From Lingula anatina (lineage: Eukaryota; Animalia; Brachiopoda), in the NCBI GenBank assembly GCA_051362555.1, contig CM120649.1, positions 7,688,001 to 7,752,000 on the forward strand: DNA of 64,000 nt, given 5' to 3'. Shown here piece by piece: positions 1-39,696 of this stretch (position 1 is its first letter; every line of letters starts with the position of its first letter). The notes beneath the pieces are model-generated. The model was not told the DNA's origin. It searched no databases and saw nothing but the letters and a program-made list of their open reading frames with translations. The position numbers and the translations under genes were made by a program.

Positions 1-179
1 CTTTTGATTATATTTCTATAGATGTAGATTAAGTCGAATAATTATTTATAAAATGCAAATTAACATGCTCGTTTCCTTAAAATTCGTACACTACTGCGTA
101 TGATGAGATTGACGAACGCGGTAGGTCTATGCTGCAGTACATCTTTTACGAAAATGACACCAGCTTTTTTCATTTTCAG

Positions 180-1034
180 TACTTTTCGTGGGCGGAAGTG
201 CCCCTCAGTTGGCAAAATATCATGAAAGCAAGGAGAAAAATTCTACAAGACGCATGTCCAAAAAATACCAAAAAAGCACTTGCCACAAACGGAAGCAGCA
301 TTCTGGCTGGTCGTCCATTTCTGTGGGTAGACGACAGACACAGTCTGATTTACTGTGAAATACCAAAAGTGGGCTGTACGAACTTTAAACGTTTGATGTA
401 TGGGCTCACGGCAAACGCAGATATTACAGAATACAAAGACATTGGGGCGTATGAAGTGCACTATAAATATCAGAAGTTTTTGGTGCCCCTGTCTGACTTT
501 TCCGAATTTGGGATCAAGTTCCGTCTTGCAAACTATCTGAAAGTTGTTCTTGTGAGGCATCCATTTGAAAGACTAGTGTCTGCTTACAGGAACAAATTAG
601 AGAAACTCAGCGCTTTTTCACGTCAAATTGGGGCCTATATCAAACCGTTCATGAGATCCCCGGGGATGAAGAGCGCGCCGCAAGAAGGGGACGGAATTTC
701 ATTTGCTGCGTTCGTCAAATACATTAATGTCTATTCTCAGCTTTCTACTAAACCGTTCAACCCGCACTGGAGAACTTACAACGCGTTGTGTAACCCATGT
801 GACGTCAAATATGACGTCATTGTGCGATACGAAACTATCCAACGTGACATTAACATGTTGCTTAAACTGTTGCGCGTGGCTGAGAAGTTCAAGTACCCGG
901 ATGGTGACATGTCATCTGTGTCGTCTGCAGGAGTTTGGAGGTCCTATTTCGCCAACGTGTCCTCTTCAGATCTCAACGAACTGAAGGGAATTTACAAACT
1001 AGACGCTAAATTGTTCAACTACACTTTCAATTAA
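180..1034 (+). CDS. Terminal exon of a carbohydrate sulfotransferase (Sulfotransfer_2, CHST11/CHST9-like)
   Basis: 5'-PSB motif CEIPKVGCTNFK, 3'-PB motif RHPFERLVSAY, NPHW, CNPCDVKYD and C-terminal YKLDAKLFNY. Polypyrimidine acceptor ttttcattttcag at 167-179 suggests the true exon starts at 180 and the N-terminal/TM exons lie upstream of the window. Confidence 0.9.
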   Translation, partial: YFSWAEVPLSWQNIMKARRKILQDACPKNTKKALATNGSSILAGRPFLWVDDRHSLIYCEIPKVGCTNFKRLMYGLTANADITEYKDIGAYEVHYKYQKFLVPLSDFSEFGIKFRLANYLKVVLVRHPFERLVSAYRNKLEKLSAFSRQIGAYIKPFMRSPGMKSAPQEGDGISFAAFVKYINVYSQLSTKPFNPHWRTYNALCNPCDVKYDVIVRYETIQRDINMLLKLLRVAEKFKYPDGDMSSVSSAGVWRSYFANVSSSDLNELKGIYKLDAKLFNYTFN

Positions 1035-5130: not shown

Positions 5131-5330
5131 ATTGCCTTTATATCGTTGTCTCATACAGAAATAAAAATAGAACGGTTTTAGAAATGGTGTCATAAAAAGT
5201 GGATTACCGTTTAAGACACTTTGAAGTATTTGTTAAATGGTGAAATCAGTATACGTCCTGATAATCTCAAGATATGCTACGGAAAAAGGGAAAATCAGAT
5301 TATTGAGCAGAACTGTCTTCTTCTTTTGCT

Positions 5331-8300
5331 CTAATGACACTTTTTGGCTAAATCTTCCATAATATTGACTGTCCTTATGGTAGCGGGGTCTTTGGGACTA
5401 AGTATCTCCTCTCTCAGTGCAAGACATTTTTTGTGATAATCAAGTGACTCTTTATACTCGCCCATGTCATGCAGTGTGTTCCCGATGTTGTAGTAGGAGC
5501 CGGCAGTATCGGGGTGTTTGGGACCAAGTGTCTCCTCTCTCAGTGCAAGACATTTTTTGTGATAATCAAGTGACTCTTTATACTCGCCCATGGCATGCAG
5601 TGTGATACCGATGTTGTTGTAGGAGCTGGCGGTATCGGGGTGTTTGGGACCAAGTGTCTCCTCTCTCAGTGCAAGACATTTTTTGTGATAATCAAGTGAC
5701 TCTTTATACTCGCCCATGGCATGCAGTGTGATACCGATGTTGTTGTAGGAGCTGGCGGTATCGGGGTGTTTGGGACCAAGTATCTCCTCTCTCAGTGCAA
5801 GACATTTTTTGCAATAATCAAGTGACTCTTTATACTCGCCCATGGCATGCAGTGTGATACCGATGTTGATGTAGGAGCTGGCAGTATCAGGGTGTTTGGG
5901 ACCAAGTGTCTCCTCTCTCAGTGCAAGACATTTTTTGTGATAATCAAGTGACTCTTTACACTCACCCATTTTCTGCAGTGTGTTCCCGATGTTGGTGTAG
6001 GAGCTGGCGGTATCGGGGTGTTTGGGACCAAGTGTCTCCTCTTTCAGTGCAAGACATTTTTTGTGATAATCAAGTGACTCTTTATACTCGCCCATGGCAT
6101 GCAGTGTGATACCGATGTTGGTGTAGGAGCTGGCGGTATCGGGGTGTTTGGGACCAAGTGTCTCCTCTCTCAGTGCAAGACATTTTTTGTGATAATCAAG
6201 TGACTTTTTAAACTCACCCATGGCCTGCAGTACATTACCGATGTTGTTGTAGGAGTTGGCGGTATCAGGGTGCTCGAGACCAAGTATCTCCTCTGTCAAT
6301 GCAAGACATTTTTTGTGATAATAAAGTGACTTTTTTAACTCACCCATGGCCTGCAGAACAGTACCGATATTGTTATAGGAGGCGGTGGTATCTGGATGCT
6401 TGAGACCAAGTATCTCCTCTCTCAGTGCAAGACATTTTTTGTGATAATCAAGTGACTTTTTAAACTCACCCATGGCCTGCAGTACAGCACCGACATTGTT
6501 GTAGGAGCTGGCGGTACCGGGGTGCTTGGGACCAAGTATCTCATCTTTCAATGCAAGACATTTTTTGTGATAATCAAGTGACTCTTTAAACTCACCCATG
6601 GCCAGCAGTACATTACCGATATTGTTGTAGGAGCTGGAGGTATCAGGGTGTTTAGGTCCACGTATCTCCTTTTTCAATGCAAGACTTTTTTTGTGATAGT
6701 CAAGTGACTTTCTATACTCACCCATGGCCCGCAGTACAATACCGATATTGTTGTAGGATGTGGCGGTATCAGGGTGCTTGAGACCAAGTATCTCCTCTCT
6801 CAATGCAAGACATTTTTTGAGATAATCAAGTGACTGTTTATACTCACCCATGGCCCACAATACAGTACCGATATTATCGTAGGAGGTGGCGGTATCAGGG
6901 TGCTTGAGACCAAGTATCTCCTCTCTCAATGCAAGACATTTTTTGTAATAATCAAGTGACTCTCTATACTCACCCATGGCCTGCAGTACATTACCGATAT
7001 TGTTGTAGGATGTGGCGGTATCGGGGTGCTTGGGACCAACTATTTTCTCTCTCAATGCAAGACATTTTTTGAGATAATCAAGTGACTGTTTATACTCACC
7101 CATGGCCTGCAGTACAGTACCGATATTGTTGTAGGAGGCGGCGGTATCGGGGTGCTTGGGACCAACTATTTTCTCTCTCAATGCAAGACATTTTTTGAGA
7201 TAATCAAGTGACTGTTTATACTCACCCATGGCCCGCAATACAGTACCGATATTGTCGTAGGAGGCGGCGGTATTGGGGTGCTTGGGACCAAGTATCTCCT
7301 CTCTCAATGCAAGACATTTTTTGTGATAATCAAGTGACTCTTTATACTGACCCATGGCCTGCAGTATATTACCCATATTGTTGTAGGAGGTTGCAGTATC
7401 GGGGTGCTTGGGACCAACTATTTCCTCTTTCAATGCAAGACTTTTTTTGTGATAATCAAGTGTCTCTTTATACTGACCCATGACCTGCAGTACAGCACCG
7501 ATATTGTTGTAGGAGTTGGCGATATCGGGGTGCTTGGGACCAAGTATCTCCTCTCTCAATGAAAGACATTTTTTGTGATAATCAAGTGACTCATTATACT
7601 TACCCATGGCCTGCAGTACATTACCGATATTGTCGTAGGAGTTGGCGGTATCGGGGTGCTTGGGATCAAGTATCTCCTCTTTCAATGCAAGACATTTTTT
7701 GTGATAATCAAGTGACTTTTTAAACTCACCCATGGCCTGCAGTACATTACCGATATTGTCGTAGAGGCCGGCGGTATCGGGGTGTTTGGGGCCAAGTATC
7801 TCCTCTTTCAGTGCAAGACTTTTTATGAGATAATCAAGTGACTCGTTAAACTCACCTATTTCGTGCAGTAAAATACCGATATTGTTGTAGGAACTGGCGA
7901 CATCGGGGTGTTTGGGACCTAGAATTTTAACCTTTTCATGTGACACCGATTTGTAAATATGTAAAGCATCCTTGTAGAGACAAATGCGACAAAAAGTCTC
8001 TGCAATCATTGCTAATTTATCTACACTTTCCAATCTTTCAGATGCATCTTGAGCTTCTATACTTTTAGTTAATAAAGCAGCAGTTTGTTTGATATGTGGT
8101 AACATCAAGGATAAATGATTTGCATCGGTGGCATTAAAATACTCCATTTTAAACCCTTTGAGAGTTTCTATATAATGACTGCAAAAAGCATTTTGGATAT
8201 CAAAAATATAATCGCCATATTCCTGGGCATTGTATTCTGCATATTCCCTTAGTAAAGGGTGGACATCATAGATGTTACTATCTGTACTAATGAGCGATTT

Positions 8301-9472
8301 ATTGACAAGAAGGTCTAGGATATGTTCACAATGATTTTGATCTAACCCTAAAATAACAGAGACTTCTTCCAGGTTAAAAGCAACAGGGAATATATGTAGT
8401 GCAACAAACACCTTTCTCGCCTCCGTTTCTAATGTTTTATAAGAAATATCAAAGCAAGTTTTGATTTCTTCTGGCATGCTGGGAATGGAAAGAGTGGGTA
8501 GCATCTTCTGAGTTTTAAATGTCTCTAATACTGCTTCTGTTTCTTTTTTGTCAAGCAGTGCAGCTAGCAATTTTAATGCAAGGGGGTTATAGCCGCACAT
8601 TTCTGCCATTTCATCTAAGTTCGCTAACTCGCTGTCGGTGGGACTGGTTGATTTTCGTTCCCATAGGACGTCACGCGAGGAGCTTTTATCAAGTTTATCA
8701 ATGTCTAACACAACTATGTTATGTGTTGTGAAATCAAACCTTTCACGACTGGCGCATAACAAACTGATATGTTTTGTTGAATCCATTACATCCTTCAAAA
8801 AATCACTAAACTCCTTCCTATTTGAACTTAAAAAAGACTCATTATTATCTAGGATAAATAGGGTATCAGTAGTCAAACTAGACAAAGTCTGTTTGAATAT
8901 GTTTTGGTAATCAGAGTATAAGTCTTTCAAATGACGTGTTGGGTGATAATGTTGGACAAGCGATAACTTGACAGAATTAAGATCTGTCACTTGTCTCATA
9001 TCAATGTACAGCACGTTTTGCATGCTTTGTCCGACCTTAACTGCTATGCTGGTCTTACCGATACCCCCCATCCCGGTCAGGAGAATGAGTGGAGCTTTAT
9101 CCCTGATATGTTGCTGTATCGTGGTAATGATGTCATCACGACCCTTCAGATCTGTGTTTATTCTTGGTAATGTCGTGGACAGCAGCTGGCAAGGGGTTTC
9201 TGAAAAGATTGCTGAACAATTTAATTTCTAAAAATAAGAAATTGTGAATGCATTTTAATATTGGGCCACCATATTTTTGAACACTATATTTTTGAACACT
9301 ATGTCTGAAAATATACAGCTGGATTGTCAGTGACATGTTAACAATAGTGTTATTAGAATATGAAATTAGTATCACTGCAATTGGTTTTGTCTGTGCTTTT
9401 ATACATGTGACTCAACGCTTTTATATTTATATTTATATCCTCTGTTTTTGTTTTTGTGTACCTTCGCCTGTA

Positions 9473-9512
<40 letters not shown>

Positions 9513-10154
9513 AACGCACACTTGCATTCATATTTTAATCAGTTCTGGTTGTAAAGATGTGAAATATTAAATATTGTGCGGAAATCTACCAGAAGCATCC
9601 AGTGGCTGGATCAGCACCTTGTCGTAGTCATCGCTAGTGTATAATGTTGACAGAGACAGCAGAATAGTTTTCAGATCAGCGAACTGGGTCTTGAAGTCTG
9701 CATCTGAGAGACCTCCTTTATTGTGAGCGAGTTCATTGCGGTATCCCTTCACCCTGCCGATGTTGGCCTCAGTTGAATTGTCCGTGGCAGGAGGTTTGTT
9801 CCATTTTGCATGAGGATTCAAGTTTGTGATATTTCTCAATAAGATTACAGCCAGGGTTATATCCAAGTCCTGCAATGTCACAGGAGGGGCGGGGCTCCCA
9901 GGGGGATATAGAATATCTATTTGGCTGGGGTTCAAAATGTTCCTTCTTTTTAGTCTGAGTAATGAGTGTTTGACTGTTTGGTCATTTAGGACATCAGATA
10001 TCACGCCATTATTTGATGGTCCATACAGCCCTGGATATTGTACTTGTAACTGGTTACTGAGAACATCTTGAAGTACTAGGTTTCCATGATCCAGTAATAG
10101 GTCCATGCGGAAACGGTTTTCTTTCTTCTTTCGTGCAATATTAACGCTGGTCAT
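5331..10154 (-). CDS. NLR-like gene copy 1: HEPN (DZIP3-type) + NB-ARC/STAND NTPase + 20 TPR repeats; two coding exons (10154-9590, 9199-5331), about 1477 aa
   Basis: Phase-1 GT-AG intron 9589-9200 joins ...LDAS to ETPCQLLSTTLPRINTDLKGRD in frame; spliced length 4434 nt is divisible by 3. HEPN signature LYPP..DLDITL..LLRNI..W..P..YRNELAH; Walker A GMGGIGKT; Walker B LFILDN; sensor CASRE; CGYNPLAL (GxP); YDVHPLLREYA (MHD-like); 42-aa KHPDTAxSYxNIGxxL repeats. Confidence 0.9.
5394..7913 (-). repeat. Coding tandem array of 20 x 126-bp TPR (42-aa, TPR_12/nephrocystin-3-like) units
   Basis: 20 consecutive [K/E]HP units counted in the translation; 20 x 126 nt = 2520 nt matches the coordinates exactly. 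Confidence 0.95.
9590..10154 (-). CDS. HEPN_DZIP3-like RNase effector exon of NLR-like copy 1
   Basis: RNELAH (Rx4H) at 9740-9723; donor G|GTAGAT at 9590/9589; acceptor tttcag just before AAATG. Confidence 0.85.
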
Positions 10155-10376
10155 TTCTGAAAGCTACAAAAATCACAAGATGGTTTATAAGGTTTATCAG
10201 GACATTTTCATTTCTCAGAATCGTTTGTTTAACTAAGATTAAAACAAATAGGTCTTGGTGTCAGTTTTAGCTGGTTGCAAGTGCGTTTGGTTGATAAATG
10301 CTGGTCTACAAATGCTTTTCCTCTTTATCCTGGAAATAGAAATAAGTACATGTAGAATTTGAAAGACAAGGACTAC

Positions 10377-10447
10377 TACCAAGCAGGCAAACGACATTGA
10401 TTCTACGTTGATTCAACGGTGAATCAACGTCCTTTGTCTGCTGGGTA
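10377..10447. mobile_element. Mini-MITE / hairpin
   Basis: tacc.agcag.caaa.gac.ttgattc ... gaatcaacgtcctttgtctgctgggta imperfect inverted repeat. Confidence 0.5.
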
Positions 10448-11370
10448 GAAGAACCATCTATGCTGATAAAATGAGATATCTGCTAGAAAGAGTTTCCGAG
10501 GAGTGGAGGAGGACTCTTCAAATAATTGCTCAGATGAGCTTCAAGGCCTTTATACGGTAACAGACAGATATTCTACGTGCATTATATTCCATTTTATTTA
10601 TACAATATAGCGCTGTGTCTAACTGAATTTCTGAATGCCATTAATGTTCTCAAGGATGAAATAAAAAGTGATAAAATGCTAAGTGGAAATAGTACTGCAC
10701 GGGTTAGAACACATACCTATGAATCTGGTCTCATTTTCAGAATAATACATATGCTTTTATTAAGAAAAAAATGCTCTCTTTTTGATCAATTTTACATTTT
10801 ATAAATATTGCACGCGGCGTGTTGTAATGGCGGGAGCCAAAAGCAACAAACCCCTACGCCTATATGTCCCACCAATAAACAAAATACTATTTTTTTAGAA
10901 AGGATAATTTGTAGCTTGCGTGAAAGGCGAATAATAAGGATACTAGGCCCACCTTTACTTGCGCCTGTTCAGTAAGTTTTGGGGTCCTGTGACCTTCGTG
11001 GTATTTTAGTCTAACTTTGACCAAGTAAAATATTTTTCTTGCAAGAATTATTGAATATTAAGTGTGGGCAAGAAATGCTTTGTGCCGCTTCACACTGTGT
11101 AAATATTGCATTATAATACAAACGCTGCAATACAAAGGTGTGACCTTGACCTAAACGTTGTTTGTCTGTGCACTCTAGCAACAGGGCGCAGTGTTTATGA
11201 AAATGAAAAAAGAAGTGCACTTTGGACAAGAAATATGTGTACTGTAAAAATCTAGCAAAAACAACCCTTTATTGCATAACTAAAATTACATGTATATTTA
11301 AGTCGTTAAATGTGAAAATATATAAATTATAAGCACACATAGCATATGTTAATCCAATAAGTAAACTTAC

Positions 11371-11640
11371 CATAAATTAACTTTACACCAACAGACGTGT
11401 GTCGAGCCACTCGCTTCTTCTTTTTCTTTAGAACAATTTTCCAGGTTATGAGCTGAACTTTGGATGTGTATTTGAATATCTAAATTTGTTCAAATAATGC
11501 AACGCTTGAGTTTAATATCTAGCTCTGTTTTTCGGTAGCATACCTGTATGTGTATATTCTGACCTTTTTTCTGACAGTCTGTATCGAACAACGACAGAAA
11601 AGGGTCACGTGACGAAAATCGTCTGGGAATTTTTAGAAGG
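11371..11640 (-). promoter_or_regulatory. Putative non-coding first exon and promoter of NLR-like copy 1
   Basis: Donor G|GTAAGT at 11371/11370 is conserved in the paralogous position (28586/28585). GTCACGTGAC at 11604-11613 and GGGAATTTTT at 11625-11634 lie nearby. Confidence 0.45.
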
Positions 11641-12193
11641 ATTTTTTTTCAGCAGCTTAAAGAGAAGTGTAATTTGATCAATGTTTTCAGTATAGAATTG
11701 AGAAAATGGATTTGGAAATTTAAACAGAATAATTAAAAGAGGACTAATTTTTACCTCCTTTTTACTTGAATAAATATGTTGTTTGTCACATACAATCGCC
11801 TAACTATGGTTTGACCTTAATAAGGCCACTGTGTGTTCAAGGCCATCGTATTCTCGCGAACAAAATGCCATCTCTTTTCAGTGTATAAGGGACGTACCCT
11901 TTATATTTCAATTAGTATCAAAATGTCAAATGACTCATTCCGGACCTTACATTACCCCTATCTTCTATGTTGCTTTGCTTTGGACTGCAGAAGGTAACTC
12001 AAACATGACATAAATCAAGAAGAAATGTAATCGTCAATCGACTGCCATTTGTTTACGTTACATCAGCGTATATACGACTTGCATTATTCGAAAGGTGCGA
12101 TGTGCGCATGACCGGAATTGTGCACTGCAGGGGTCAAAATAGTACCGGAAGCGTTGTTGACAGCGATAGGAACACATGATGGAAGCATAAGAC

Positions 12194-12310
12194 ATGCCGG
12201 GGGCGATATTAAACAAGCCATTTGAGGCGACAACGGTGCCGGAGTTGAAAAGTTGGTTAAAATGTAGGAATGCCCGCACATCAGGCAAAAAAGAAGAGCC
12301 ATTAAAAAGG
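12194..12310 (+). pseudogene. SAP-like exon of the transposon's second gene
   Basis: TVPELKSWLKCRNARTSGKKEEPLKR resembles a SAP motif and is followed by donor AG|GTATGT; a decayed next exon near 12723 encodes ..KILDPDG.. Confidence 0.55.
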
Positions 12311-13125
12311 TATGTTACACGATATTATTTTAAATACAAGACCAAATACAAAACCCTAGTGTGGTCATTATGTAATTATGTTCACCTGAGTCATTTATTG
12401 GGGAGATAAATTTGTCACCTGGTTCAAGCAGTTATCTGATACAATCTCTGAGGTGGGCTAGTGCACTGTACAGGTAGGCCTTATTACATGTAGTACAAGC
12501 TCACTGTCAATATCAGTGCATCTATCATTTGTTTCTTCTTCATTATCTTTCTGTTGTGTATCCAGGTAGATTTCGGTTACAAAAATAAGACTAGTCATGT
12601 CAATTTTCTGTTTTGTCATCAGTCTAATATGTATGTATGTAAATAAATCACTGTTATAGATGTGTTGATGATGACTTTAATAATTATTTTCATGACTATT
12701 AAATGTTTTACTTGTTTTATAGGTGAAAACTGTACAGTGAGGCTAGAGAGAGAAACAAAATATTGGATCCAGACGGCAGAGAAAATTAGAAGTAGACCTA
12801 CCAGATTGAAGTTTGAATCTAGACCGTGGAGAATGGACCAAGTCCTTGAAGGGAATGCCCAAACCGTTTTTTTTTTAATATTTGCCTATTAATAAATACA
12901 ATTCAATATTTCGTTTCACATTTTTATTTTGCATAATAAAACCAATGATGTTGCCTTGGAAATATCTTTCCAAGGTACCTTACGATATTTCTGATTCGTT
13001 TTAAAATGCAATGTTTTAAACATTTTCTAGATATGTTCAAGTGCATTGTGATAATAAAAATGAGATATTTGGTAAAAGTGTTCTCTTTTTTGTTATTTGC
13101 ATAAGTAATATACCATTCAATACTC

Positions 13126-13237
13126 CTTCACAGTCAGGTTTAAACCTGGTTTTAGTTTTACTCAGGTCTAAGTAATGTCGATAACAATACTCTAAAACCA
13201 AAGTAAAACTAAAACCAGCTTTAACCTTGCTGCGAAA
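13126..13237. mobile_element. Palindromic MITE nested in the THAP element
   Basis: ggtttaaacctggttttagttttact ... agtaaaactaaaaccagctttaacc inverted arms. Confidence 0.55.
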
Positions 13238-13781
13238 TCAAACCAAAGTTTCACATGACAGTTTTCATGCCATTTTTTATACTGAGGTAATGTCAGGGTA
13301 TAAAAAGTCATGAAAATTTTTAATTCCTCGTAGGTTTCAAGACCGATGTAAAATTAAACTATTTCAGGTTTGTTGTGCATAGACTTTATGCTGAAAGTGT
13401 GTTTGTCAACTTCCTCATGTGCTTTGGACAGTTGTTCCAGCATTTTATGTCCTTTTTCTCTGTCACACTATTTCTTTATGCATCTTTTTTTTTTTTTTTT
13501 TTTTTTTTTGCTCGTTGTAATTCCACTCTTGTTTCCGAAAGTTCAATTTCTAAAGATCAGATTTTCTGTCTGTTCCATACTGAAAATAATATGTTGTTTT
13601 TCCTTAACTGTCGTTAAAAGCGCATCTGAGCCTGCATCTGATAGAATGCTGTAGGCATCGTGGTCTGTATTTGAGAAGCCATTTTCGTCCTCGCTGTTCA
13701 ACATCTCACTTGCCGCCAGGTTCACTAAAATTTGTCTCAGAGTTTTCAACAGTTAAATGTCTAATCATTTTTTCGGGGCTT

Positions 13782-14051
13782 TCAAATCTTCGATTTCTTG
13801 AGTGAAAATATAGTTGGTCTCCCACCCAAATACGATTTATTCCCTCCTTCAAAATGAGCACTACACACACGGTGATGCTTGGCGGGCTCGAACTTACTAA
13901 ATTTGCCTTCATTTCCCGCTCGTCCAATATTGTCAATCCATATACCTCTCTTTTTTGGGTCCTTGGGGAAAGCATTAAATGAAAAATTTCGATCTCGCTC
14001 CGTATTGTTGAAACAAACAGGCACAAAACACATAGAACCGCCGAGAGGCAT
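13782..14051 (-). pseudogene. THAP zinc-finger domain of a broken transposase
   Basis: C-x4-C ... FP ... W ... C-x2-HF ... PTIF (CFVPVC, FPKD, IWI, VCSAHF, RPTIF); the reading frame breaks shortly after. Confidence 0.85.
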
Positions 14052-17000
14052 TTTATTTCTGTGTACAGAAATGGCGGCAACGCAAGATGGGTCCAACTTT
14101 ACCCACAATGCATTGCGCTCAATATCGAAAACGAGACGAATAATGCAAGTCGTATATGGCGTGCGTTGTGAACTCGCATCTTAGGGACACCTGACGTATC
14201 TCACACAGCGAGAATGCCTGGGAATAAAGGCCTCAGTTGCTGAATATGTCTCAGTAGCTGCATGTATGTGTGTAACTTTCATTAAATAATAAAGGATGAT
14301 ATTTGTATATTATATATATAAGATAGGGTGTTATTTCCACCAAGTAATGAGACTTGGGGGGGGGGGGGGGGTCGACGATGGAATATAGTGTGCTGATAAA
14401 TATAAATGCATAACCTACATACGCCTTACAATACTGGAAGGTGGGGGAATGAGAGACGTGCGTGTGCTAGCGTACGCTGGGTGATTCTGAAATATGGTTT
14501 TTATGTAAGAAAGAGTGCGAATTATCGCAACTACGTACGTAGGGGAGACCGGGGCTAGTTTGACCCCAGGGTAAGTTAGCCCCCAGTCAATTTATGAAAA
14601 AGTAACTACGAGGTAAATAAATTGGCCACATAGGTCTATTCTTGTAAAGTGACCGTAGCCTACATGTACAATGCTAAGGAAGTGTCGGACGTTAAAAAGT
14701 TTTACTTAAGTGATGAGTCCAAATAAACGATTTATATACCTAAAAGTAAATTTGCTTAAGAGATTTAAAAATCTATTTTCATAGGCTTTTTATCGAATAT
14801 AATATTTGTATAGGGCATCAAACTGAAGCTCATTGTTTCAAGTTTCACAGCGATGTATCATCGTTGTTCATTCTAGCACTATAAATGGCTGTCATCTTTT
14901 AAAATAAAAATTGTACACCCGGAGCTAGTTAGCCCCCTTGACTCGGGCAAGTTGGGCCTATCATATTACCCACAATCCTTTGCGCACAACAGAGCTAGAG
15001 ACCATGCATTGTTGAAACAAACTCAATGGTTTAAAACTGAATTCGTTACTTTCTTTTAAAACGAAAATTTATTATTCGTTTTCATTCATTAAGAACCTGC
15101 TTATTACCATTATTAATTTACTTTTAATTAAAATAAAACAAATTGATAGATATTTTGGTCCTTGTCCCCCTACAACGAGACGTACGGAAACCTCAATTAA
15201 TCTGACTCATTTGAACTATTTATTCATCAAGGACTCTCTAAAATCAATTTGATAAATCAGAATCGTTCCATAGAGCAGAGGTCGTTGCTCCAGAGGATTG
15301 TTTCTTATGGTACGAATCCGATCTTATGTCTGAGTGGGTCGGGAATCCGGAATGCTGGCCCGGACCTGCATGCACCGGCAGGACTGGTTGATACACTGAG
15401 ATTTTTAGTAAACAGCCCCAGCTATCAGAACAGACTCTCAAAAGAATATATGTTGGCGGGACTGCTCTTAAAATCGTTTTAATCACTGCTTTTATTGTAT
15501 TATTTTACACATATATTTATTTTTTACTCATCTTTTAAGGTTGTTTTAGTAATAAATAAATATATTTTGAGACTCCTTTTTATCAATCAATTTTTCTAGG
15601 AAACTGCTCTTAAATGTAACATCCATCTGCTTGAATTTCCCCCAAACCTTGAATTTGCTCAAATTATCTTGTACCAGGAAGGATATTTAATATTGCTTTA
15701 TTTATCCTGCATAACTTTTCTCGAACACGGTTCATTTACACCACTTTTGGATACTGAAAGAGTGAAATGGTAGCGACTTCTTTATTTCCCCAGGCTGTAA
15801 AAACGTTCACAATGTAGATCGACTCTTCTCGTAAAGATATCGTTTTAGATTCGAGATATGATCCACTCAGTCACAGCGTCCTCGTTTCCTGTAACTTAAC
15901 CATAGTATAAAACTTAAATAACTTTTCGTGATCTCACACCGTCACCATCACACAGCCGTATTGAAGTTAAAATATGTCCGAAAATATACCTCGCACCGTA
16001 TTGCAAAACAGCTGGTATATGAATAAAAACGGCATAGTCTCTTAAGTTGTTCAACCTTGCATATTAAAATCACTTAAGCCACAAACTTATTACAAACGTT
16101 TAAATCACGCCAAACGTTTGGACGTGCCATAAGCCACTTTCCTCAGTCTCAGAGTGACACAGGTAGCATTGTGTCATTAGCCGAGGGTACTTGGAGCTAT
16201 CCCCCCCCCCCCCCCCCTTAGAACTGCGGCTACTGTGGTTAGGGGTTATAATACAGGTGTGCGGGAGAATGTATCTGCTTTCGTCTCTATTTAGATTGTT
16301 TAAACCTTTTCACCCTAGAATACCTGACAATCAATACTGCCCGCCGCCGTCTAGAGCGCAAGGACGGCATTGTGCCATCTAGCACCTCTAACACAATCAG
16401 CCTGGGAGAAGTATAGTGGATGGCACGTGCTGTGTGAAATAGGACCTCCAGGCTTACAATTACAATTAATCTGTTTACAATGAAGATTTTTTTAAAATCT
16501 GCAATTAATTTTTAATATTTCTATTACCCATTTGTATCAATCTATTTATTCGTTCATCCTTCTGTCCATTAACATTAAAGATAGTGTCAGTCAATTTAGT
16601 GCCAAAAAATGTAAAAAGAATTTGACTGCGTCATTTTTGAAGTGATTTATCAAATGCCAAAATAAATTCGCCATTGTCCCCATTACTTTGATTTAAAGTT
16701 CGATCGGTCTATAAAATAGCCTCTATGATGTGTTACTTTTCCGAGCCTCCCGGTTTCTTTTCAAATACACATTTTTACAACTTATTCACCAGCAAGACAT
16801 CTAGTGTCAATCAGTGAAAACGTTCCTTTTGATACAATAAATTTGAAACCTTTTGTTTAAAATAATTTGATGATAATTACAAACTGTTCGTTACTGACAG
16901 ATAGTCACCATCAGTTTGGCAATGAACTTGAACGATACATAAAAATATATTTTTATTTTCATATTTGACAACTTAAAAAAACACCTATTCCACAGTCACA

Positions 17001-17208
17001 GCGGCAGTGGAAAAATTTACCATTAAGATAATTAATTTACCATTAAGATAATTAATCTGCACAGAAGTATGATACACATACTATCACAGCTGTATTTTAT
17101 ACATGATATATATGATATATTAATCATACATGTAACTAGTTATATACTCTAGGAAATCAAAATCATGCTTTAGGAAAATGAAGACAACGCCTAATTTTCA
17201 AGGTAAAT

Positions 17209-17260
<52 letters not shown>

Positions 17261-17783
17261 AATGACACATCATTACATTTAGTCCCCCAACATACTAGTA
17301 TATATTATAACCTTTTTAAGACACGTCATCTATATAATAAAAACACATGTCATAATGAACTGACTTTAGATAATCAAGACATCTACTAGTGAAAACGCAA
17401 CAAAGCTAAGACACCACTACGCCATGACTTTAAATCAATACTTTAGAAGAACTACAGTATAGCCTTACTGTACTACAAATGTAGTAGTATGAAAATCGTT
17501 TATAAAAAAGACTATGACCATTCAACCGACTGATCATTAACTTGATCTAGACAATAAGACATAGCCATACTTTAGGAAAATGAAGACAACACATAATCAT
17601 CGGTACGATATCACACAAAAAATTGAAATATTATGTTACGAATGTATAGTATATCCAAATCTTCCTTGAAATTAACACGTTAAATATTTGCAATGGACAA
17701 CAACACTCACACTCCATAACGTCAAATATATAAACATAATATACTGAATTGTGATACCTAATACACATTTATAACAAAGCTAA

Positions 17784-18001
17784 GGGCGCATTCCCATAGA
17801 TTTAGACCTATCCCCGTGGGGAGTCTCACTAGATTACTGTCAGATAATCCGGCTTAAATGCACCGTCCCGCCAACAACATGCACAAGCTGTAACGGGGTA
17901 ATTAGCTTCCGTGCGCAATCAGCTGACTGCAATTTAGCGTGAACCCCCCCGGGAGTTAGGTCGATCTAGTAAGATCGATCTAAATCTCTGGGAATGTCCT
18001 C
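17784..18001. mobile_element. MITE with TAA target-site duplication (PIF/Harbinger-like)
   Basis: taa|gggcgcattcccatagatttaga ... tctaaatctctgggaatgtcctc|taa. Confidence 0.7.
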
Positions 18002-19365
18002 TAAGACACCTGCAAGACATATTCTTAACTTAGAAAAGCCTAGAAGCAGTACAATACAGTCTTACTACAACAAAGGGGTTTTAAATCGTTCATTAATAGA
18101 AATGTTAGGCCTACATGAACTTGTTACGTTATAAACAGTCTCTGCCAAGTGACTGGAGATAAAACACTATTGAGATGAGATGACATGGAATGCAAACTGC
18201 AACATATAACAATACTTGCAGATTTAATGCTTTGTCCGATATATGCCCAAAGGCCTATTTATCGTAATTCACGTAATACACGTTAATTTTGTCGCTAAGT
18301 GAATCTCATACAGTCGTTTACTAGCAAAACCTCTAAAGAACTGTGAAAAAACTTCATGGATTCTTTGTCAAAATGATTGTGACCATTATACTCATATTTA
18401 ATTGACTTTTGATAAATATTAAAGAAATTTGTAATACAAGAATCACTCGGCTTTAACCCACATGCATTAATATAAGTGTGTGTGTGTGTGTGTTTGTGTG
18501 TGTACGCATGCGGATGTGTCTGTATCTAGACGTGGCCTTTTTGCATGTACATTTTGTCATACACGAACACATTTTAGAATACTTTACAGCCATATCTTAG
18601 AAAAGAAAAGAGGGGTAAGTTATTTCATAAGATTAACAGGGAAAGTAAATAATACATAATATATCACTGGATACACAGTATATTCCTGTAAATAGCGGAT
18701 ATACAGTACCCTGGGAAAGGTGGATGCTTGTATTGGATTATGAAATTCCAGATGAAGTTAAACAAATATAAACATACATAGGACAATGAGTGCCTGAATA
18801 TGGCTTTAAAAAGAATACGTAAAGAGTATAATGAAGTCTGAATGAAATGTACTTTTAATCCTACAAGAGGGAACTATGAATGTCTGGATAAACGGTGCGG
18901 TAGAGAATGACGACTTAAATACAAATTTATAGATCTACGACTGCTTGGAGAAGACATATTTTTCTACATTGCACTGATTTTATTTTGGACTCCTTACAAT
19001 GTCTACGATAATGAATTTGTCAACAAAATTGCCCAGAAATATGGAGTAGAACGTGGTAATGATTGGAGACGAGTAAAAGTACACTAAATGCTATGTGCTG
19101 CGTAGCGTTCATACAGTACTTTTACTACAGTATTTTACAACATGGACAAACTTATAACCTTGCCTGCAACACTATGGGAACCCCACTACAGAATAGTCTG
19201 CCTGAATAGATAGCACACAAGATACCGCCTGTATCACATGAAAAAAATCATGAAAGGAATTCTAGAAAGCAGAACACCCTTTGAGGCTAATAATGAGACA
19301 TTTGATTCTAAGGGTTCCAGAACCGAAAATGGAAAGTATCCCGAGTCAAGTGAAGGCCAAGTTGA

Positions 19366-22340
19366 CTAAACAATTGAACAAAATGGTACACGATCTCTAT
19401 GATAATATTTTACCAAAAATTCAATAACACTGATTGTTCTGACAGTATCATGGTGTTTGGGACCAAGGACCTCCTCTGTCACTGCAAGGCATTTATTGTA
19501 ATAATCAAGTGCCTCTTTATATTTACCCATATACTATACAGTGCATGGCCAATGTTGTTGTAGGAGTCTGCTGTATTAGGGTGTTTATGACCGAGTATCA
19601 CCTTTCTTAATGCAAGACTTTTATTGTGATAAACAAGTGACTCTTTATACTCACCCATGTCTTGCAGCACAAGACCTATATTATTGTAAGAACTGGCGGT
19701 ATCGGGGTGTTTGGGACCAAGTATCTCCTCTCTCAATGCAAGACATTTTTTGTGATAATCAAGTGCCTTTTTATAATAGCCCAAGGCCCGCAGAACATTA
19801 CCGATATTATTGTAAGAGCTGGCGGTATCGGGGTGTTTGGGACCAAGTATCTCCTCTCTCAATGCAAGACATTTTTTGTGATAATCAAGTGCCTTTTTAT
19901 AATAGCCCAAGGCCTGCAGTACAATTCCGATATTGTTGTAGGAGCTGGCGGTATCGGGGTGTTTGGGACCAAGTATCTCCTCTCTCAATGCAAGGCATTT
20001 TTTGCAATAATCAAGTGACTCTTTATACTCACCCATGGCCAGCAGTACACTACCGATATTGTTGTAGAAGGCAGCGGTATCAGGGTGCTTGAGACCAAGT
20101 ATCTCCTCTCTCAATGCAAGACATTTTTTGTGATAATCAAGTGACTTTTCTAACTCACCCATGGCCTGCAGTACATTACCGATATTGTCGTAGGAGACGG
20201 CGGTATCGGGGTGTTTGGGGCCAAGTATCTCCTCTCTCCATGCAAGGCATTTTTTGTAATAATCAAGTGACTCTTTATACTTACCCATGGCCTGAAGTAT
20301 ATTACCCATATTGTTGTAGGAGGTTGCAGTATCGGGGTGCTTGGGACCAAGTATCTCCTCTGTCAATGCAAGACATTTTTTGTGATAATCAAGTGACTCT
20401 TTATACTGACCCATGGCCTGCAGTATATTACCCATATTGTTGTAGGAGGTTGCAGTATCGGGGTGCTTGGGACCAACTGTTTCCTCTTTCAATGCAAGAC
20501 TTTTTTTGTGATAATCAAGTGACTCATTATACTTACCCATGGCCTGCAGCACATTACCGATATTGTTGCAGGAGTTGGCGATATCGGGGTGCTTGGGATC
20601 AAGAATCTCCTCTTTCAATGCAAGACATTTTTTGTGATAATCAAGTGACTTTTTAAACTCACCCATGGCCTGCAGTACATTACCGATATTGTCGTAGGAG
20701 CCGGCGGTATCGGGGTGTTTGGGGCCAAGTATCTCCTCTCTCAATGCAAGACTTTTTATGAGATAATCAAGTGACTCGTTAAACTCACCTATTTCGTGCA
20801 GAAAAATACCGATATTGTTGTAGGAACTGGCGACATCGGGGTGTTTGGTACCTAGAATTTTAACCTGTTCATGTGACACCGATTTGTAAATATGTAAAGC
20901 ATCCTTGTAGAGACAAATGCCATAAAAAGTCTCTGCAATCATTGCTAATTTATCTACACTTTCCAATCTTTCAGATGCATCTTGAGCTTCTATACTTTTA
21001 GTTAATAAAGCAGCAGTTTGTTTGATATGTGGTAACATCACGGATAAATGATTTGCATCGGTAGCATTAAAATACTCCATTTTAAAGCCTTTGAGAGTTT
21101 CTATATAATGACTGCAAAAAGCATTTTGGATATCAAAAATATAATTGTCATATTCCTGGGCATTGTATTCTGCATATTCCCTTAGTAAGGGGTGGACATC
21201 ATAGATGTTACTATCTGTACTAATGAGCGATTTATTGACAAGGTCTAGGATATGTTCACAATGATTTTGATCTAACCCTAAAATAACAGAGACTTCTTCC
21301 AGGTTAAAAGCAACAGGGAATATATGTAGTGCAACAAACACCTTTCTCGCCTCCGTTTTTAATGTTTTATAAGAAATTTCAAAGCAAGTTTTGATTTCTT
21401 CTGGCATGCTGGGAATGGAAAGAGTGGGTAGCATCTTCTGAGTTTTAAATGTCTCTAATACTGCTTCTGTTTGTTTTTTGTCAAGCAGTGCAGCTAGCAA
21501 TTTTAATGCAAGGGGGTTATAGCCGCACATTTCTGCCATTTCATCTAAGTTCGCTAACTCGCTGTCGGTGGGACTGGTTGATTTTCGTTCCCATAGGACG
21601 TCACGCGAGGAGCTTTTATCAAGTTTATCAATGTCTAACACAACTATGTTATGTGTTGTGAAATCAAACCTTTCACGACTGGCGCATAACAAACTGATAT
21701 GTTTTGTTGAATCCATTACATCCTTCAAAAAATCACTAAACTCCTTCCTATTTGAACTTAAAAAAGACTCGTTATTATCTAGGATAAATAGGGTATCAGT
21801 AGTCAAACTAGACAAAGTCTGTTTGAATATGTTTTGGTAATCAGAGTATAAGTCTTTCAAATGACGTGTTGGGTGATAATGGTGGACAAGCGATAACTTG
21901 ACAGAATTAAGATCTGTCACTTGTTTCATATCAATGTACAGCACGTTTTGCATGCTTTGTCCGACCTTAACTGCTATACTGGTCTTACCGATACCCCCCA
22001 TCCCGGTCAGGAGAATGAGGGGAACTTTATCTCTGATATGTTGGAGTATTGTGGTAATGATGCCATCACGACCCTTCAGATCTGTGTTTGTTCTAGGTAA
22101 CATCGTGGAGAGCAGCTGACAAGGGGTTTCTGAAAAGGTTTCTGAACATAAAAATCTAAAAACAGGAAACTGTTAACACATTTTTCACCTTGTGGTGGCC
22201 ATATTTAACACTTTTATATATGAAAATATACAGCTGGAGTGTCAGAATCTTTTAACATTAGAATGTTATAAGAATATGGAATCATTATCTCTGCCATTGT
22301 TTTTGCCTGTGCTTTTATAAATGTGACTCAACGGTGTGTG

Positions 22341-22373
<33 letters not shown>

Positions 22374-23021
22374 TTGTGTGTGTGTTTTTATTAGCTCTGG
22401 TTGTATTGATGTGAAATATTGAATATTTTGCAGAAATCTACCTGAAGCGTCCAACGGCTGAATCAGCAAATTGTCGTAGTCGTCACTAGTATTCGATGTC
22501 GACAGAGACCGCAGAATAGCTTTCAGATCATCGAACTGGGTCTTGAAGTCTGCGTCTGAGAGACCTCCTGTTCCGTGAGCGTGCTTATTGCGGTATCCCT
22601 TCACCCTGCCGATTTTGGCCTCTGTAGAAGTGTCCGTGTCTGGAGCATTGTCCCATTTTGCATGAGGATTCAAGTTTGTGATATTTCTTAATAAGATTAC
22701 AGTCAGGGTTATATCCAAGTCGTGCAATGTCACAGGAGGGGCAGGGTTCCCAGGGGGATAGAGGATATCCATTTGACTTCGATTCAGAATGTTTCTTCTC
22801 TTCACTCCCCTCGTCTTTAAACTGAGTAATGTATGTTTCACATTTTTGTCATTTAGGACATCAGATATCACGTCATTACTTGATGGCCCATACAGCCCTG
22901 GATATTGTGCTTGTAACTGGTTACTGAGAACACCCCGAAGTACTAGGGTAGCACGTTCCAGTAGCAGGTCCATGCGGAAACGGTTTTCCTTCTCTTTTCT
23001 AGGAATTTCCCCAGTGGCCAT
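19366..23021 (-). CDS. NLR-like gene copy 2: HEPN + NB-ARC + 10 TPR repeats plus a frameshifted 11th; exons 23021-22442 and 22129-19479, about 1076 aa as sequenced (ancestral stop at 19366)
   Basis: Same phase-1 intron (22441-22130); RNKHAH at 22592-22575; NTPase nearly identical to copy 1; an extra 2 nt near 19531 shifts repeat 11 out of frame. Confidence 0.88.
19459..20846 (-). repeat. Coding tandem array of about 11 x 126-bp TPR units (copy 2)
   Basis: 10 full units at 20846-19587 plus an 11th interrupted by a +2 frameshift. Confidence 0.93.
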
Positions 23022-23181
23022 TTCTGGTCAAGATTACTGCAAAGAGTCAAGAGAGGAGTTATAGGGTTCGTCAACATATTTCCATTATCTCGTAATTACT
23101 TACGATAAGACAAATGCGATAGAGGTAATACAATTGTCATCATTGCAAAGATATTTGTTTTTCATCTACATATGACTGTAG

Positions 23182-23726
23182 TGTAACACTTTATATCATA
23201 AAGAGTCCTCGGTGTATGGTGTAGTGTTCACAAATATAACGTGTAGTGTTCACAAATATAATTCCCAGACATGTAAATTAATTTGATTAGAGTCGATTGC
23301 TTGTGCACTCGACTCGTTTTATGGCCTTACCTGAAGTCATGTAACTTAAGTGGACGTGTGCAATTTGAATAATTAAAATTAGTATGTACCGCCAAATACT
23401 GCAGCACAGAATCCACCTAAAGATAAGAAATAAGTATAAAAGACGTATAGAATTAATATCGGGGGACAGACTGAAGAATACTCGAAGGAGACCGCTCGAC
23501 GGAGCTATGGGAGACGGCCTAGAGCTTGGAGGCTTCACGTATAGAACATGTAGTTAGAGATCGTCAACCAATAAACCATTAAACTGGTCATTATGTGGAC
23601 TTGAGTTTTCTTTGCGCGACCTCACGTAAATCTGACACGAACCGTGGAATTTTGAATTGCGTTATCCACTGAGTAAGTCTAAAACGTAATGTCCTATTTC
23701 GAGCCCACGCTTGAATTAAGCGTACA
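23182..23726 (+). mobile_element. Possible solo LTR in the 5' intron of NLR-like copy 2
   Basis: TGTAAC...GTACA ends with internal TATAAAA, AATAAA and GTAAGT; no TSD confirmed. Confidence 0.3.
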
Positions 23727-24296
23727 AAAATTATATAAGTTTAGGACATTCATCTCATATGTATATGTCAAGGTACATAACAATGGCATATATGTTTAAT
23801 GTGTCAGCGTGTACTGTGGGCGATAAAGGTTTATAATTTTCCTGTTTTAAAAGTCTTATACTCTATTTGATAAATATAAGAAGGGATTAATACAAAAAAA
23901 GCATTCACCTCTATGGGTATTCTAGCACAATTGTTTTTATATGATCTTATTTCCGCATATTTGTTCCATTATCATATTGCCAACATTTGCGTTTCAAATA
24001 TACTATACAAATACCGGCTTAGCAGGCTCGTGAAAGTTAATGATCCATGCAAATTCACTGCTTTTAAGTAAGTGAAGAAAAATCAGTCATGGAGCAAACA
24101 ACACTTGCTGGCTTCAGCAGGGAAAGTTGATTCTATCCAAAGAGAAAATGATGGAGCAATGTATGCAGAGCATAAGCGTAATAAGTAGAAAACATTGAAA
24201 AACAAACATTGCTTGATGAGTTTTCTAGAATTTAACAAGGCAGCAAAGCTGTCAAATGTACAGACAAAAAAAAAAAACAGAAAATAAAGATGCAAA

Positions 24297-28900: not shown

Positions 28901-29301
28901 TTTGGAAACAAACTGCAATTGTCAACCCTTTTGAATGGATATGGTTGTTTCAAGAGGACTAAGTGACCTCTTTTTTTATATGATAACCAAAATAAACGTT
29001 GTTTGCAATACACAATATCCTAAATATAACTTGACCTCAATAAGGTCATGGTGTGTTCAAGGTCATCGTATTCTCGTCAACAAAATGACATCCCTTCTCA
29101 TATCAGCACAGCACAGCGTTTCTCCTACATTGTCGTTAAGTATAATGTCACAGGACATTCGGACCTGTTATCCCTTTCTTTTTTGCTCTGTGCTGGACTG
29201 TAGTAGCTAACAGAAACCTGACATAAATCAAGGAGAAGTTATTGTCAATGGACTGCCATTTGTTTACTATTACGGTCCAACAGCATATGACGTGCGTTGT
29301 A

Positions 29302-31700: not shown

Positions 31701-32044
31701 TGTGACGATGTAGTGTGTTAGATGAGATCATTTTATATTGCTACCGGTAGATGTCTCTGTAAGTAAAGTGTTGTCCGGTGTGCAAGTTTGAATCTCTCCC
31801 GTGATTGGTAACCTAAAGGTAAAACTGTTCACTGTATAGTTGGTTCTGATTGGTAAACGTGTACTATCTGAACTTGTATATAAGGTGTAACGTGAAATAA
31901 ATCGCCCTCTTTGGCCTCTTTGCTCTTAGCGGCTGTCTTTTGCTCTTCTCTTGAAGCTTTTTGGCTTTGTGTTTAACTCTGAGATACCAGTAAGTACATT
32001 GTTATTTGTACCTTCATAAGGCACTCGGCCGCGAAGGCGTAACA
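31701..32044 (+). repeat. 5' LTR
   Basis: TGTGACG...CGTAACA; ATTGG boxes, TATATAA at 31877, AATAAA at 31896, GTAAGT at 31990. Confidence 0.97.
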
Positions 32045-32046
32045 AT

Positions 32047-32064
32047 TGGCGCAGTCGACAGGAT
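32047..32064 (+). promoter_or_regulatory. Primer-binding site, complementary to a tRNA-Ser 3' end
   Basis: TGGCGCAGTCGACAGGAT; the reverse complement ATCCTGTCGACTGCGCCA resembles eukaryotic tRNA-Ser 3' ends. Confidence 0.8.
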
Positions 32065-34946: not shown

Positions 34947-34957
34947 AACGGGACGAA

Positions 34958-38911: not shown

Positions 38912-39157
38912 TTTTCAATTGAATGAACCACAATTGGTGGAACCAATTGTAAAAAGATCAAGATTAGGTAGACAAATTAAAATGCCATCTCATTTAAGAG
39001 ATTTTGCGTTAGAATGATCATATTGATGTATATTTAGTTTATTAGTCAAGGTATAGTTGTATATAAATACTTCCTTAATTTTCGGCAGTGCTGAAATAAA
39101 AGGAATTTAATTTAATTTATTTATTTGTATTTTTTTTTTTTTTTTTTTATTTAGAAC

Positions 39158-39448
39158 ATGGATGAATCAAACATTATGCACATCTGGGAAGAAGAGTTTC
39201 AATGGTGCACAGATTGGGTTGAATCTCCAGAACGTTTATATATACTCTCAATCAGAAACATTGAAATAAAAAGTTCAAAACAAGCCAAAATAATCATCCA
39301 TTTAGGAAAAATATGGAGAGAGAGATGTTTGTTAGAGACGGGTTATGATTGGTTCATGGACCACGAGAAAGAAATAAACAAAGAGTTATCTAAAGAAGAT
39401 TGTATTGATATTATTTGTTATCTCAGAGACAAACTCTATCAGTATTAA
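39158..39448 (+). CDS. Accessory ORF3 of the Gypsy element (96 aa, unknown function)
   Basis: Intact ORF between pol and the 3' LTR, with ATG 3 nt after a strong polypyrimidine/AG acceptor (39154). Confidence 0.5.
   Translation: MDESNIMHIWEEEFQWCTDWVESPERLYILSIRNIEIKSSKQAKIIIHLGKIWRERCLLETGYDWFMDHEKEINKELSKEDCIDIICYLRDKLYQY

Positions 39449-39662: not shown

Positions 39663-39696
<34 letters not shown>

What the first reader, a model, noticed from the sequence alone, without database searches (positions are those of the whole stretch)
5331..23021. Tandem pair of HEPN-RNase / NB-ARC / TPR NLR-like receptors that the ORF track splits in two
Seen: the short ORFs at 9567-10154 and 22266-23021 are not separate genes. 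Each splices through a conserved phase-1 GT-AG intron, in frame, to the NTPase-TPR ORF, giving effector-NTPase-sensor proteins of about 1477 and 1076 aa. The HEPN Rx4H motif is intact in both (RNELAH, RNKHAH). Established: HEPN domains are RNases activated by dimerisation (RNase L/Ire1 KEN, Csm6, Cas13); STAND NTPases oligomerise on ligand binding; bacterial Avs and fungal NB-ARC-TPR proteins use this layout for non-self recognition and cell death. DZIP3-type HEPN-STAND fusions are known computationally in invertebrates, but I know of no functional characterisation. Inference: this is an animal ligand-gated RNase immune receptor family.
Basis: partly seen in the sequence, partly recalled or inferred. 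Interest (0 to 1): 0.92.

Follow-up and report, generated by a model that had tools for sequence, protein, structure and literature searches.

The report
Spliced RNase-headed immune receptor pair
Two neighbouring genes of a marine invertebrate (closest relatives: the brachiopod Lingula) each join a predicted RNA-cutting head to a switch ATPase and a long repeat sensor, a layout already catalogued in corals that likely works as an intracellular immune receptor but, as far as my searches reach, has not been tested.

Summary
Both short ORFs are DZIP3-type HEPN exons (Pfam 120/108 bits, Rx4H intact). Each joins an NB-ARC-class STAND-TPR exon through a phase-1 GT-AG intron, giving 1477 and 1076 aa. 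Gene A's junction is seen in RNA (4 reads, 1 of 4 runs); gene B's rests on homology.

The layout is not new. RefSeq Lingula models already fuse these domains, a coral paper's supplement lists DZIP3-HEPN/NB-ARC/TPR genes, and this scan noted it twice on other DNA. My literature searches found no functional test.

Added here:
- Gene A's TPR groove positions evolve under diversifying selection (omega 2.9); gene B alone is not significant.
- The NTPase regions of A and B are nearly identical (dS 0.02) while their HEPN exons are not (dS 0.39), pointing to gene conversion.
- A CaaX-type tail (CSI[IV]-stop) ends a RefSeq paralog, but lies beyond a stop in A and a frameshift in B.

Best reading (about 0.6): a ligand-gated RNase immune receptor family under birth-and-death evolution. 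RNase activity, oligomerisation, ligand and cell death are inferred, not shown.

The parts
9590..10154 (-). Gene A coding exon 1: DZIP3-type HEPN domain, motif RNELAH (R139, H144)
   Evidence: PF18738 120 bits; model pLDDT 95; dN/dS 0.28 against gene B exon 1
9200..9589 (-). Gene A phase-1 GT-AG intron, 390 nt
   Evidence: sequence; 4 junction reads with 4 starts in run X4
7920..9199 (-). Gene A exon 2, 5' part: AP-ATPase/NB-ARC STAND module (Walker A GMGGIGKT, Walker B FILDNNE, CASRE, GYNPLAL, winged helix YDVHPL)
   Evidence: fold of paralog P0002 matches PH0952 (6mfv) and Apaf-1
5379..7919 (-). Gene A TPR sensor: 20 units of 126 bp / 42 aa, about 90% alike, variable at groove positions
   Evidence: TRF 20.2 copies; units; selection tests
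5295..5333 (-). Gene A stop (5333-5331) followed in frame by a basic stretch and CSII-stop: CaaX-type tail not encoded as assembled
   Evidence: RefSeq paralog P0002 ends in CSIV
22442..23021 (-). Gene B coding exon 1: DZIP3-type HEPN domain, motif RNKHAH
   Evidence: PF18738 108 bits
22130..22441 (-). Gene B phase-1 GT-AG intron, 312 nt (predicted; no junction reads displayed)
   Evidence: best of 15 open in-frame joins by similarity to P0002
20853..22129 (-). Gene B STAND module, 96% identical to gene A's
19445..20852 (-). Gene B TPR sensor, about 11 units; the reading frame slips near 19540-19528 and stops at 19479
19366..19444 (-). Out-of-frame remainder of gene B: capping helix and CSIV-stop

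Best explanation
Two tandem paralogous genes each encode a spliced HEPN-STAND-TPR protein that likely works as an intracellular non-self receptor whose output is predicted to be RNA cleavage. Shown: the exon join (by reads for A, by homology for B), the three domains, intact Rx4H and P-loop motifs, purifying selection on the HEPN exon, and diversifying selection on gene A's TPR groove positions. Inferred from STAND and HEPN biology: the TPR solenoid holds the ATPase in a resting state. A foreign or altered-self ligand binding the groove would trigger nucleotide exchange and oligomerisation. HEPN heads, only about 18 residues from the NTPase, would then pair to form the composite Rx4H site and cut RNA, stopping translation or killing the cell. 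The family turns over by duplication, repeat shuffling and gene conversion, and these two copies may be partly degraded at their 3' ends.
For: Domains and motifs. Junction reads. Eleven RefSeq Lingula HEPN+TPR models, of which 10 of 11 keep Rx4H. R-x4-6-H in 155 of 176 covered HEPN domains among fetched homologs. NTPase closest to AfsR (E 8e-6) and Roq1 by sequence. Paralog model matches the STAND-TPR PH0952, Apaf-1, Avs3, CED-4 and NRC resistosomes. HEPN exon dN/dS 0.28. Published TPR groove set (positions 2, 5, 9, 12, 13, 33, 34; PMC1261162): omega 2.87 against 0.79 elsewhere in gene A (2dL 17.7) and 1.95 against 0.60 in A+B (p 0.0015); 0 of 62 recombining null simulations reached 1.95. The same signature is reported for fungal NLR TPRs (PMC4986451). 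The same HEPN is fused to other immune platforms: NACHT/NPHP3-type in 22 of 36 chosen proteins, and also Roc-COR, IIGP GTPase, caspase and CARD.
Against: No biochemical or infection data exist here. The structural match of the HEPN model to Csm6 and AbiF is weak (Z 7.4 and 7.1, tied with unrelated helical bundles) and Foldseek gave nothing under E 0.001. Expression is low: mean depth at most 2.5 in coding bins, with 6-25% of each run read. Groove selection is not significant in gene B alone (omega 1.05). The selection test is my own codon-model code, and repeats recombine. Gene B is frameshifted in its last repeat and gene A ends before the tail of paralog P0002. The NB-ARC Pfam scores are only just above the cut-off.
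Confidence: 0.6

Rival explanations
1. The proteins are immune receptors, but the HEPN head is a narrow-specificity RNase or a non-catalytic RNA-binding/signalling module (for example against viral or transposon RNA), not a cell-killing effector.
For: 21 of 176 covered homologous domains have lost the motif, including the close paralog P0003. PMC9646362 proposes degradation of viral and TE RNA rather than death. No DZIP3-type HEPN structure was found in the PDB by profile search.
Against: The motif and the neighbouring R134/N140 are conserved in most homologs. The N-terminal slot of STAND proteins usually holds a proximity-activated effector (10.64898/2026.09.21.753143, passages).
Confidence: 0.2
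2. These two copies are decaying members of a birth-and-death family; the family may be functional but A and/or B no longer are.
For: Frameshift in gene B's last repeat; stop before the CSII tail in gene A; low read depth, and the junction seen in only 1 of 4 runs.
Against: Open frames of 3.9 and 2.7 kb; all catalytic motifs intact; HEPN dN/dS 0.28; spliced RNA for A. Both lesions touch only the last 12-45 residues and could be alleles or assembly errors.
Confidence: 0.12
3. A non-immune role: self/non-self tissue recognition between individuals, or a housekeeping nephrocystin-3- or kinesin-light-chain-like TPR scaffold.
For: The 42-aa TPR type matches KLC structures and TPR_NPHP3; one paralog is named nephrocystin-3-like; fungal NB-ARC-TPR proteins act in allorecognition (PMC4986451).
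Against: Lineage-specific expansion, tandem duplication, conversion and groove-directed selection are not expected of a housekeeping scaffold. Brachiopods are solitary animals with no known fusion behaviour (own knowledge).
Confidence: 0.08

Closest known systems
Coral DZIP3-like HEPN / NB-ARC / TPR genes (orthogroup OG0000193, Acropora digitifera; PMC10236652 Additional file 17)
   Same: Identical three-domain layout, listed in 4 rows of the first of 14 parts read
   Different: Orthology of the NTPase is not shown: my NB-domain search returned only Lingula hits, then unnamed or bacterial hits at 21-30% identity. Computational only.
RefSeq Lingula anatina LOC106178291, LOC106179188 and paralogs (P0001-P0004, P0006, P0008-P0011, P0019, P0020)
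   Same: Same family; HEPN 89% and NTPase 85% identical to gene A for P0001; same junction sequence PLDAS|ETPCQL
   Different: None is identical to either window gene; they are named only 'uncharacterized' or 'nephrocystin-3-like'; P0002 keeps the CSIV tail.
Bivalve, cnidarian and amphioxus HEPN_DZIP3-NACHT NLR-like proteins (PMC9646362, PMC8260672, 10.1101/2025.07.21.665930)
   Same: Same HEPN effector with Rx4-6H at the N-terminus of a STAND protein; the RNase-immune role is already hypothesised
   Different: NACHT rather than AP-ATPase/NB-ARC, with mostly LRR or WD40 sensors
Fungal NB-ARC-TPR NLR-like proteins (e.g. Podospora Pa_2_10340; PMC4986451)
   Same: KLC-type TPRs with high internal identity and positive selection on the concave face
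   Different: Effectors are sesB, PNP_UDP, HET and others; not HEPN in the passages read
Bacterial Avs3/Avs4 and archaeal PH0952 STAND-TPR
   Same: STAND-TPR switch (structural hits 8dgc and 6mfv); in Avs, ligand-induced oligomers activate a nuclease (recalled)
   Different: DNase (Cap4/Mrr) effectors, prokaryotic, no introns
RNase L / Ire1 KEN, Csm6, AbiF HEPN RNases
   Same: HEPN superfamily with Rx4-6H, activated by pairing (PMC3710099 and recalled)
   Different: Gated by 2-5A, a kinase, cOA or ncRNA, not by a STAND ATPase; structural similarity here is only Z about 7

Membership tests
DZIP3/hRUL138-like HEPN (PF18738) | Profile score above gathering threshold | tested here: met
   120 and 108 bits against cut-off 27
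DZIP3/hRUL138-like HEPN (PF18738) | Rx4-6H motif | tested here: met
   RNELAH and RNKHAH align with the conserved R139/N140/H144 columns
HEPN RNases | HEPN fold | tested here: inconclusive
   Best VIA hits Csm6 (Z 7.4, rmsd 3.6, 116 aligned) and AbiF (Z 7.1, rmsd 5.1, 157 aligned), tied with unrelated bundles; Foldseek best E 0.67, Csm6
HEPN RNases | Dimer with composite active site | not tested
HEPN RNases | R/H-dependent RNA cleavage | not testable with these tools
   needs an assay
STAND NTPase, AP-ATPase/NB-ARC class | Walker A, Walker B, sensor Arg, GxP and winged-helix motifs | tested here: met
   GMGGIGKT, FILDNNE, CASRE, GYNPLAL and YDVHPL in both genes; the matching columns are invariant or nearly so across 25 sequences including distant homologs
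STAND NTPase, AP-ATPase/NB-ARC class | Profile and fold match to NB-ARC rather than NACHT | tested here: met
   PF00931 27.8/28.4 bits against 23.5, NACHT not among the 25 families shown per gene; AfsR and Roq1 by sequence; 6mfv and Apaf-1 by fold of paralog P0002
STAND NTPase, AP-ATPase/NB-ARC class | Ligand-induced oligomerisation | not testable with these tools
   needs biochemistry or cryo-EM
NLR in the strict sense (NBD + LRR) | C-terminal leucine-rich repeats | tested here: not met
   The sensor is TPR throughout
NLR-like receptors with concertedly evolving repeats (fungal type) | Repeats with >85% internal DNA-level similarity and variable copy number | tested here: met
   20.2 copies at 90% and 11.2 copies at 85% DNA matches; the published criterion is on amino acids, so this is an approximate match
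NLR-like receptors with concertedly evolving repeats (fungal type) | Positive selection on the concave TPR face | tested here: met
   Gene A omega 2.87 and A+B 1.95; gene B alone not significant
Coral HEPN/NB-ARC/TPR orthogroup OG0000193 | Common descent of the NTPase domain | tested here: inconclusive
   No named coral protein among 27 hits of a word-limited search that scored only 7996 candidates
CaaX-prenylated proteins | C-a-a-X at the true C-terminus | tested here: not met
   Not encoded by A or B as assembled; present in paralog P0002 only, 1 of 12 Lingula STAND-TPR models inspected, several of which look incomplete

The most novel reading that the evidence does not exclude
This Lingula subfamily is a membrane-anchored RNase resistosome. 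A CaaX-prenylated, rapidly diversifying TPR sensor surveys endomembranes (as prenylated OAS1 p46 does), and STAND oligomerisation switches on a HEPN RNase, putting sensor and RNase L-like executor in one polypeptide. Loss of the tail in A and B would give cytosolic variants, and conversion of the NTPase core would keep paralogs able to co-assemble while heads and sensors diverge.
Probability: 0.2. Interest if true: 0.8.

Novelty: new member of a known kind. Interest (0 to 1): 0.47.

Why it matters
DZIP3-type HEPN is the commonest non-LRR partner of NACHT in nine cnidarian species (PMC8260672) and is abundant in bivalves, yet my searches found no demonstration that it cuts RNA. A positive assay would establish a nuclease-effector class of animal STAND receptors, the animal counterpart of bacterial Avs, and suggest an RNase L-like defence in invertebrates. 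This pair is a compact test case (two coding exons, 188-aa head, short linker) with evolutionary evidence of a diversifying ligand groove. The open question is already posed in print, so the locus makes it no more testable than coral or oyster members do; hence moderate interest.

Tried and rejected
No RNA holder was listed by the run search; the nine runs were added by species label, so the reads laid may come from alleles or near-identical paralogs. No whole genome is held, so family size and intron phases in paralogs could not be checked on DNA. Read support for gene B's junction and for the two 3' lesions was not obtained: the single lay covered 7950-23900, with near-zero depth at gene B's 3' end. 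A HEPN homodimer prediction and the protein atlas were not available. The PDB profile search with the HEPN alignment gave only coiled-coil noise, and Foldseek on the HEPN model gave nothing under E 0.001.

Rejected: (a) the short ORFs are separate genes, because of reads, homologs and the lack of a start for the long ORFs; (b) alternative GT-AG joins, because they score lower against P0002; (c) a module swap exactly at the intron as the cause of the A/B mosaic, because identity rises near codon 226-240, inside exon 2; (d) strict NLR status, because there is no LRR.

Literature searches that found no functional study of a HEPN-STAND or DZIP3-type HEPN. No CaaX-bearing STAND-TPR paper appeared among the 15 listed of 1,229, a weak search. 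The library lacks most subscription journals; a Lingula immune-gene survey (Gerdol et al. 2018, recalled) was not seen. Supplements of the bioRxiv preprints and files 13-17 of PMC10236652 were not searched.
Full report
Observation. The window has no N and no whole genome is held. Four minus-strand open frames carry the finding. Joining 10154-9590 to 9199-5331 and 23021-22442 to 22129-19479 gives uninterrupted products of 1477 and 1076 aa across GT..AG introns of 390 and 312 nt, both phase 1. The small exons match HEPN_DZIP3 at 120 and 108 bits; the large ones match NB-ARC (27.8 and 28.4 bits, cut-off 23.5) and TPR families. TRF finds 20.2 and 11.2 copies of a 126-bp unit.

Splicing. Laying four RNA runs on 7950-23900 gave the joint 9199/9590 with CT..AC ends in 4 reads with 4 starts in run X4, and none in X1, X5 or X7. 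The first mates lie on +, as expected for a minus-strand RNA in a usual stranded library. The runs were chosen by species label and laid at 93% likeness, so an allele or near-identical paralog could be the source. Depth over coding bins was at most 2.5. Gene B's joint is not among the 15 joints displayed (4 hidden). It rests on homology: it ranks first of 15 open in-frame joins against RefSeq paralog P0002, as A's ranks first of 7.

Family. The HEPN search among longer proteins gave 17 hits. Eleven are Lingula anatina RefSeq models: nine HEPN+TPR, one HEPN-Roc-COR, and one with the HEPN at its C-terminus. The NTPase search gave 27 hits: 12 from Lingula, then unnamed or bacterial proteins at 21-30% identity, among only 7996 scored candidates. 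So the window most likely comes from a Lingula, and the fused form is already annotated there; no returned protein is identical to A or B. The full-library search found 776 HEPN relatives, of which 150 were listed. I scanned 36 chosen proteins, mostly long ones: 22 of 36 carry NACHT or NPHP3_N-type NTPases, and others carry Roc-COR, IIGP GTPase, caspase, CARD, B-box/NHL, ankyrin or TPR. R-x4-6-H is intact in 155 of 176 covered domains (3 not covered) and in 10 of 11 Lingula HEPN+TPR models. The sequence changes partner right after the motif P[LI][DE]A[SK] in P0005, P0007 and P0036, consistent with a mobile exon, though intron phases in those genes could not be checked.

Structure. The paralog P0002 folds at mean pLDDT 83; its top Foldseek hits are the STAND-TPR PH0952 (E 5e-15), Apaf-1, Avs3, KLC TPRs, CED-4 and NRC resistosomes. 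By sequence the NTPase is nearest AfsR and Roq1. Walker A/B, sensor, GxP and winged-helix motifs are intact. The HEPN model is confident (pLDDT 95), but its best structural neighbours, Csm6 (Z 7.4, rmsd 3.6, 116 aligned) and AbiF (Z 7.1, rmsd 5.1, 157 aligned), are tied with unrelated bundles, and Foldseek is not significant. No dimer model could be obtained.

Sensor evolution. In 30 repeat units (20 from A, 10 from B; 29 distinct), amino-acid variation peaks at unit positions 7, 10, 14, 15 and 17. Pfam TPR_1 numbering places unit position 6 at TPR 1, so 7, 10, 14, 17 and 18 are TPR 2, 5, 9, 12 and 13, the groove positions named in PMC1261162 (passages). My own codon site models favour a class with omega about 2.1 (M1a/M2a p 0.011; M8a/M8 p 0.0015; posterior above 0.9 at 7, 14, 17 and 36 under M2a). 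With the published seven-position set fixed, omega is 2.87 against 0.79 in gene A, 1.95 against 0.60 in A+B (p 0.0015), and 1.05 (not significant) in B alone. None of 62 null simulations with three differently related segments reached 1.95 (maximum 1.70). I had seen the variability table before running this test, the mapping of positions 33-34 onto 42-residue repeats is uncertain, and more complex recombination could inflate the result. The pattern parallels fungal NB-ARC-TPR receptors (PMC4986451, passages).

Mosaic history. Between A and B, dS is 0.39 over the HEPN exon (dN/dS 0.28), 0.24 over codons 189-240 and 0.02 over codons 241-660. The HEPN tree groups A with P0001 (100/99) and the NTPase tree groups A with B (100/99). 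AU tests reject the swapped groupings (p 0.0013 and 0.0007; groups named after seeing the trees). The simplest reading is recent gene conversion or unequal crossover over the NTPase, starting near Walker A; an assembly artefact is not excluded.

C-termini. P0002 ends in a basic stretch and CSIV. Gene A stops at 5333-5331, but its frame continues through a basic stretch to CSII-stop (5309-5295). Gene B slips frame near 19540-19528, and the frame that continues the repeat ends in CSIV-stop (19380-19366). The codons for the C, S and I differ between A and B only synonymously, which suggests the motif was conserved until recently. A CaaX box would direct prenylation (own knowledge), as in OAS1 p46 (PMC8357416, abstract) and ZAP-L (PMC8568172, search listing only). 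As assembled, neither window gene encodes it, and the other 11 Lingula STAND-TPR models inspected lack it, several looking incomplete.

Mechanism. Shown: gene structure, domains, motifs, selection patterns. Inferred: TPR-groove ligand binding releases the ATPase, oligomers form, HEPN heads pair and cut RNA, and translation stops or the cell dies (0.6). Rivals: a narrow or non-catalytic RNA module (0.2), decaying copies (0.12), a non-immune role (0.08).

Known or new. PMC3710099 (passages) lists DZIP3-HEPN fused to TPR, NACHT and other domains in animals. PMC9646362 (passages) reports more than 50 HEPN-NACHT genes in pearl oyster, the Rx4H motif and the RNase-immune hypothesis. PMC8260672 and 10.1101/2025.07.21.665930 (passages) report the same in cnidarians and amphioxus. 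PMC10236652 (passages, supplement search, and part 1 of 14 of Additional file 17) lists the exact DZIP3-like_HEPN / NB-ARC / TPR layout in Acropora. PMC13581612 and 10.64898/2026.09.21.753143 (passages) describe no animal HEPN-STAND test in the passages read. Searches found no functional study. Two earlier scan notes describe the same layout on other genomes.

Verdict: real, correctly described, a new member of a known but untested kind; interest 0.47.

Noticed in passing
window 31697-41440 (+): Ty3/Gypsy LTR retrotransposon with identical LTRs (about 31701-32044 and 41093-41436), a 4-bp target duplication, gag (32946-34946, with an N-terminal helix-hairpin-helix match) and pol (34898-38911) frames, and an extra 244-aa frame without a Pfam match (39980-40714); a very recent insertion.
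   Followed up: partly
window 10155-10180 and 23022-23045 (-): Both HEPN exons are preceded by a pyrimidine tract and CAG immediately before AAATG, so an upstream exon (untranslated or phase-1 coding) is likely; RefSeq P0001/P0002 start at the same Met.
   Followed up: no
window 11674-13269 (+): Reads with a GT..AG joint 12307/12721 in all 4 runs, on the strand opposite to the receptor genes and with many mismatches: probably a spliced transcript of a repeat copy elsewhere; part of it recurs at 28998-29267.
   Followed up: no
window 81-1034 (+): Sulfotransferase (PF03567, 168 bits) frame next to the pair.
   Followed up: no
proteins P0004/P0005, P0039, P0043, P0052, P0068: The same HEPN head on other platforms: Roc-COR (P0005, whose HEPN is sister to P0004's), IIGP GTPase, caspase and TRIM-like B-box/NHL proteins.
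   Followed up: partly
window 50713-51758: A 37-bp tandem array beside a minus-strand frame with an SH3 match, likely an exon of another gene.
   Followed up: no
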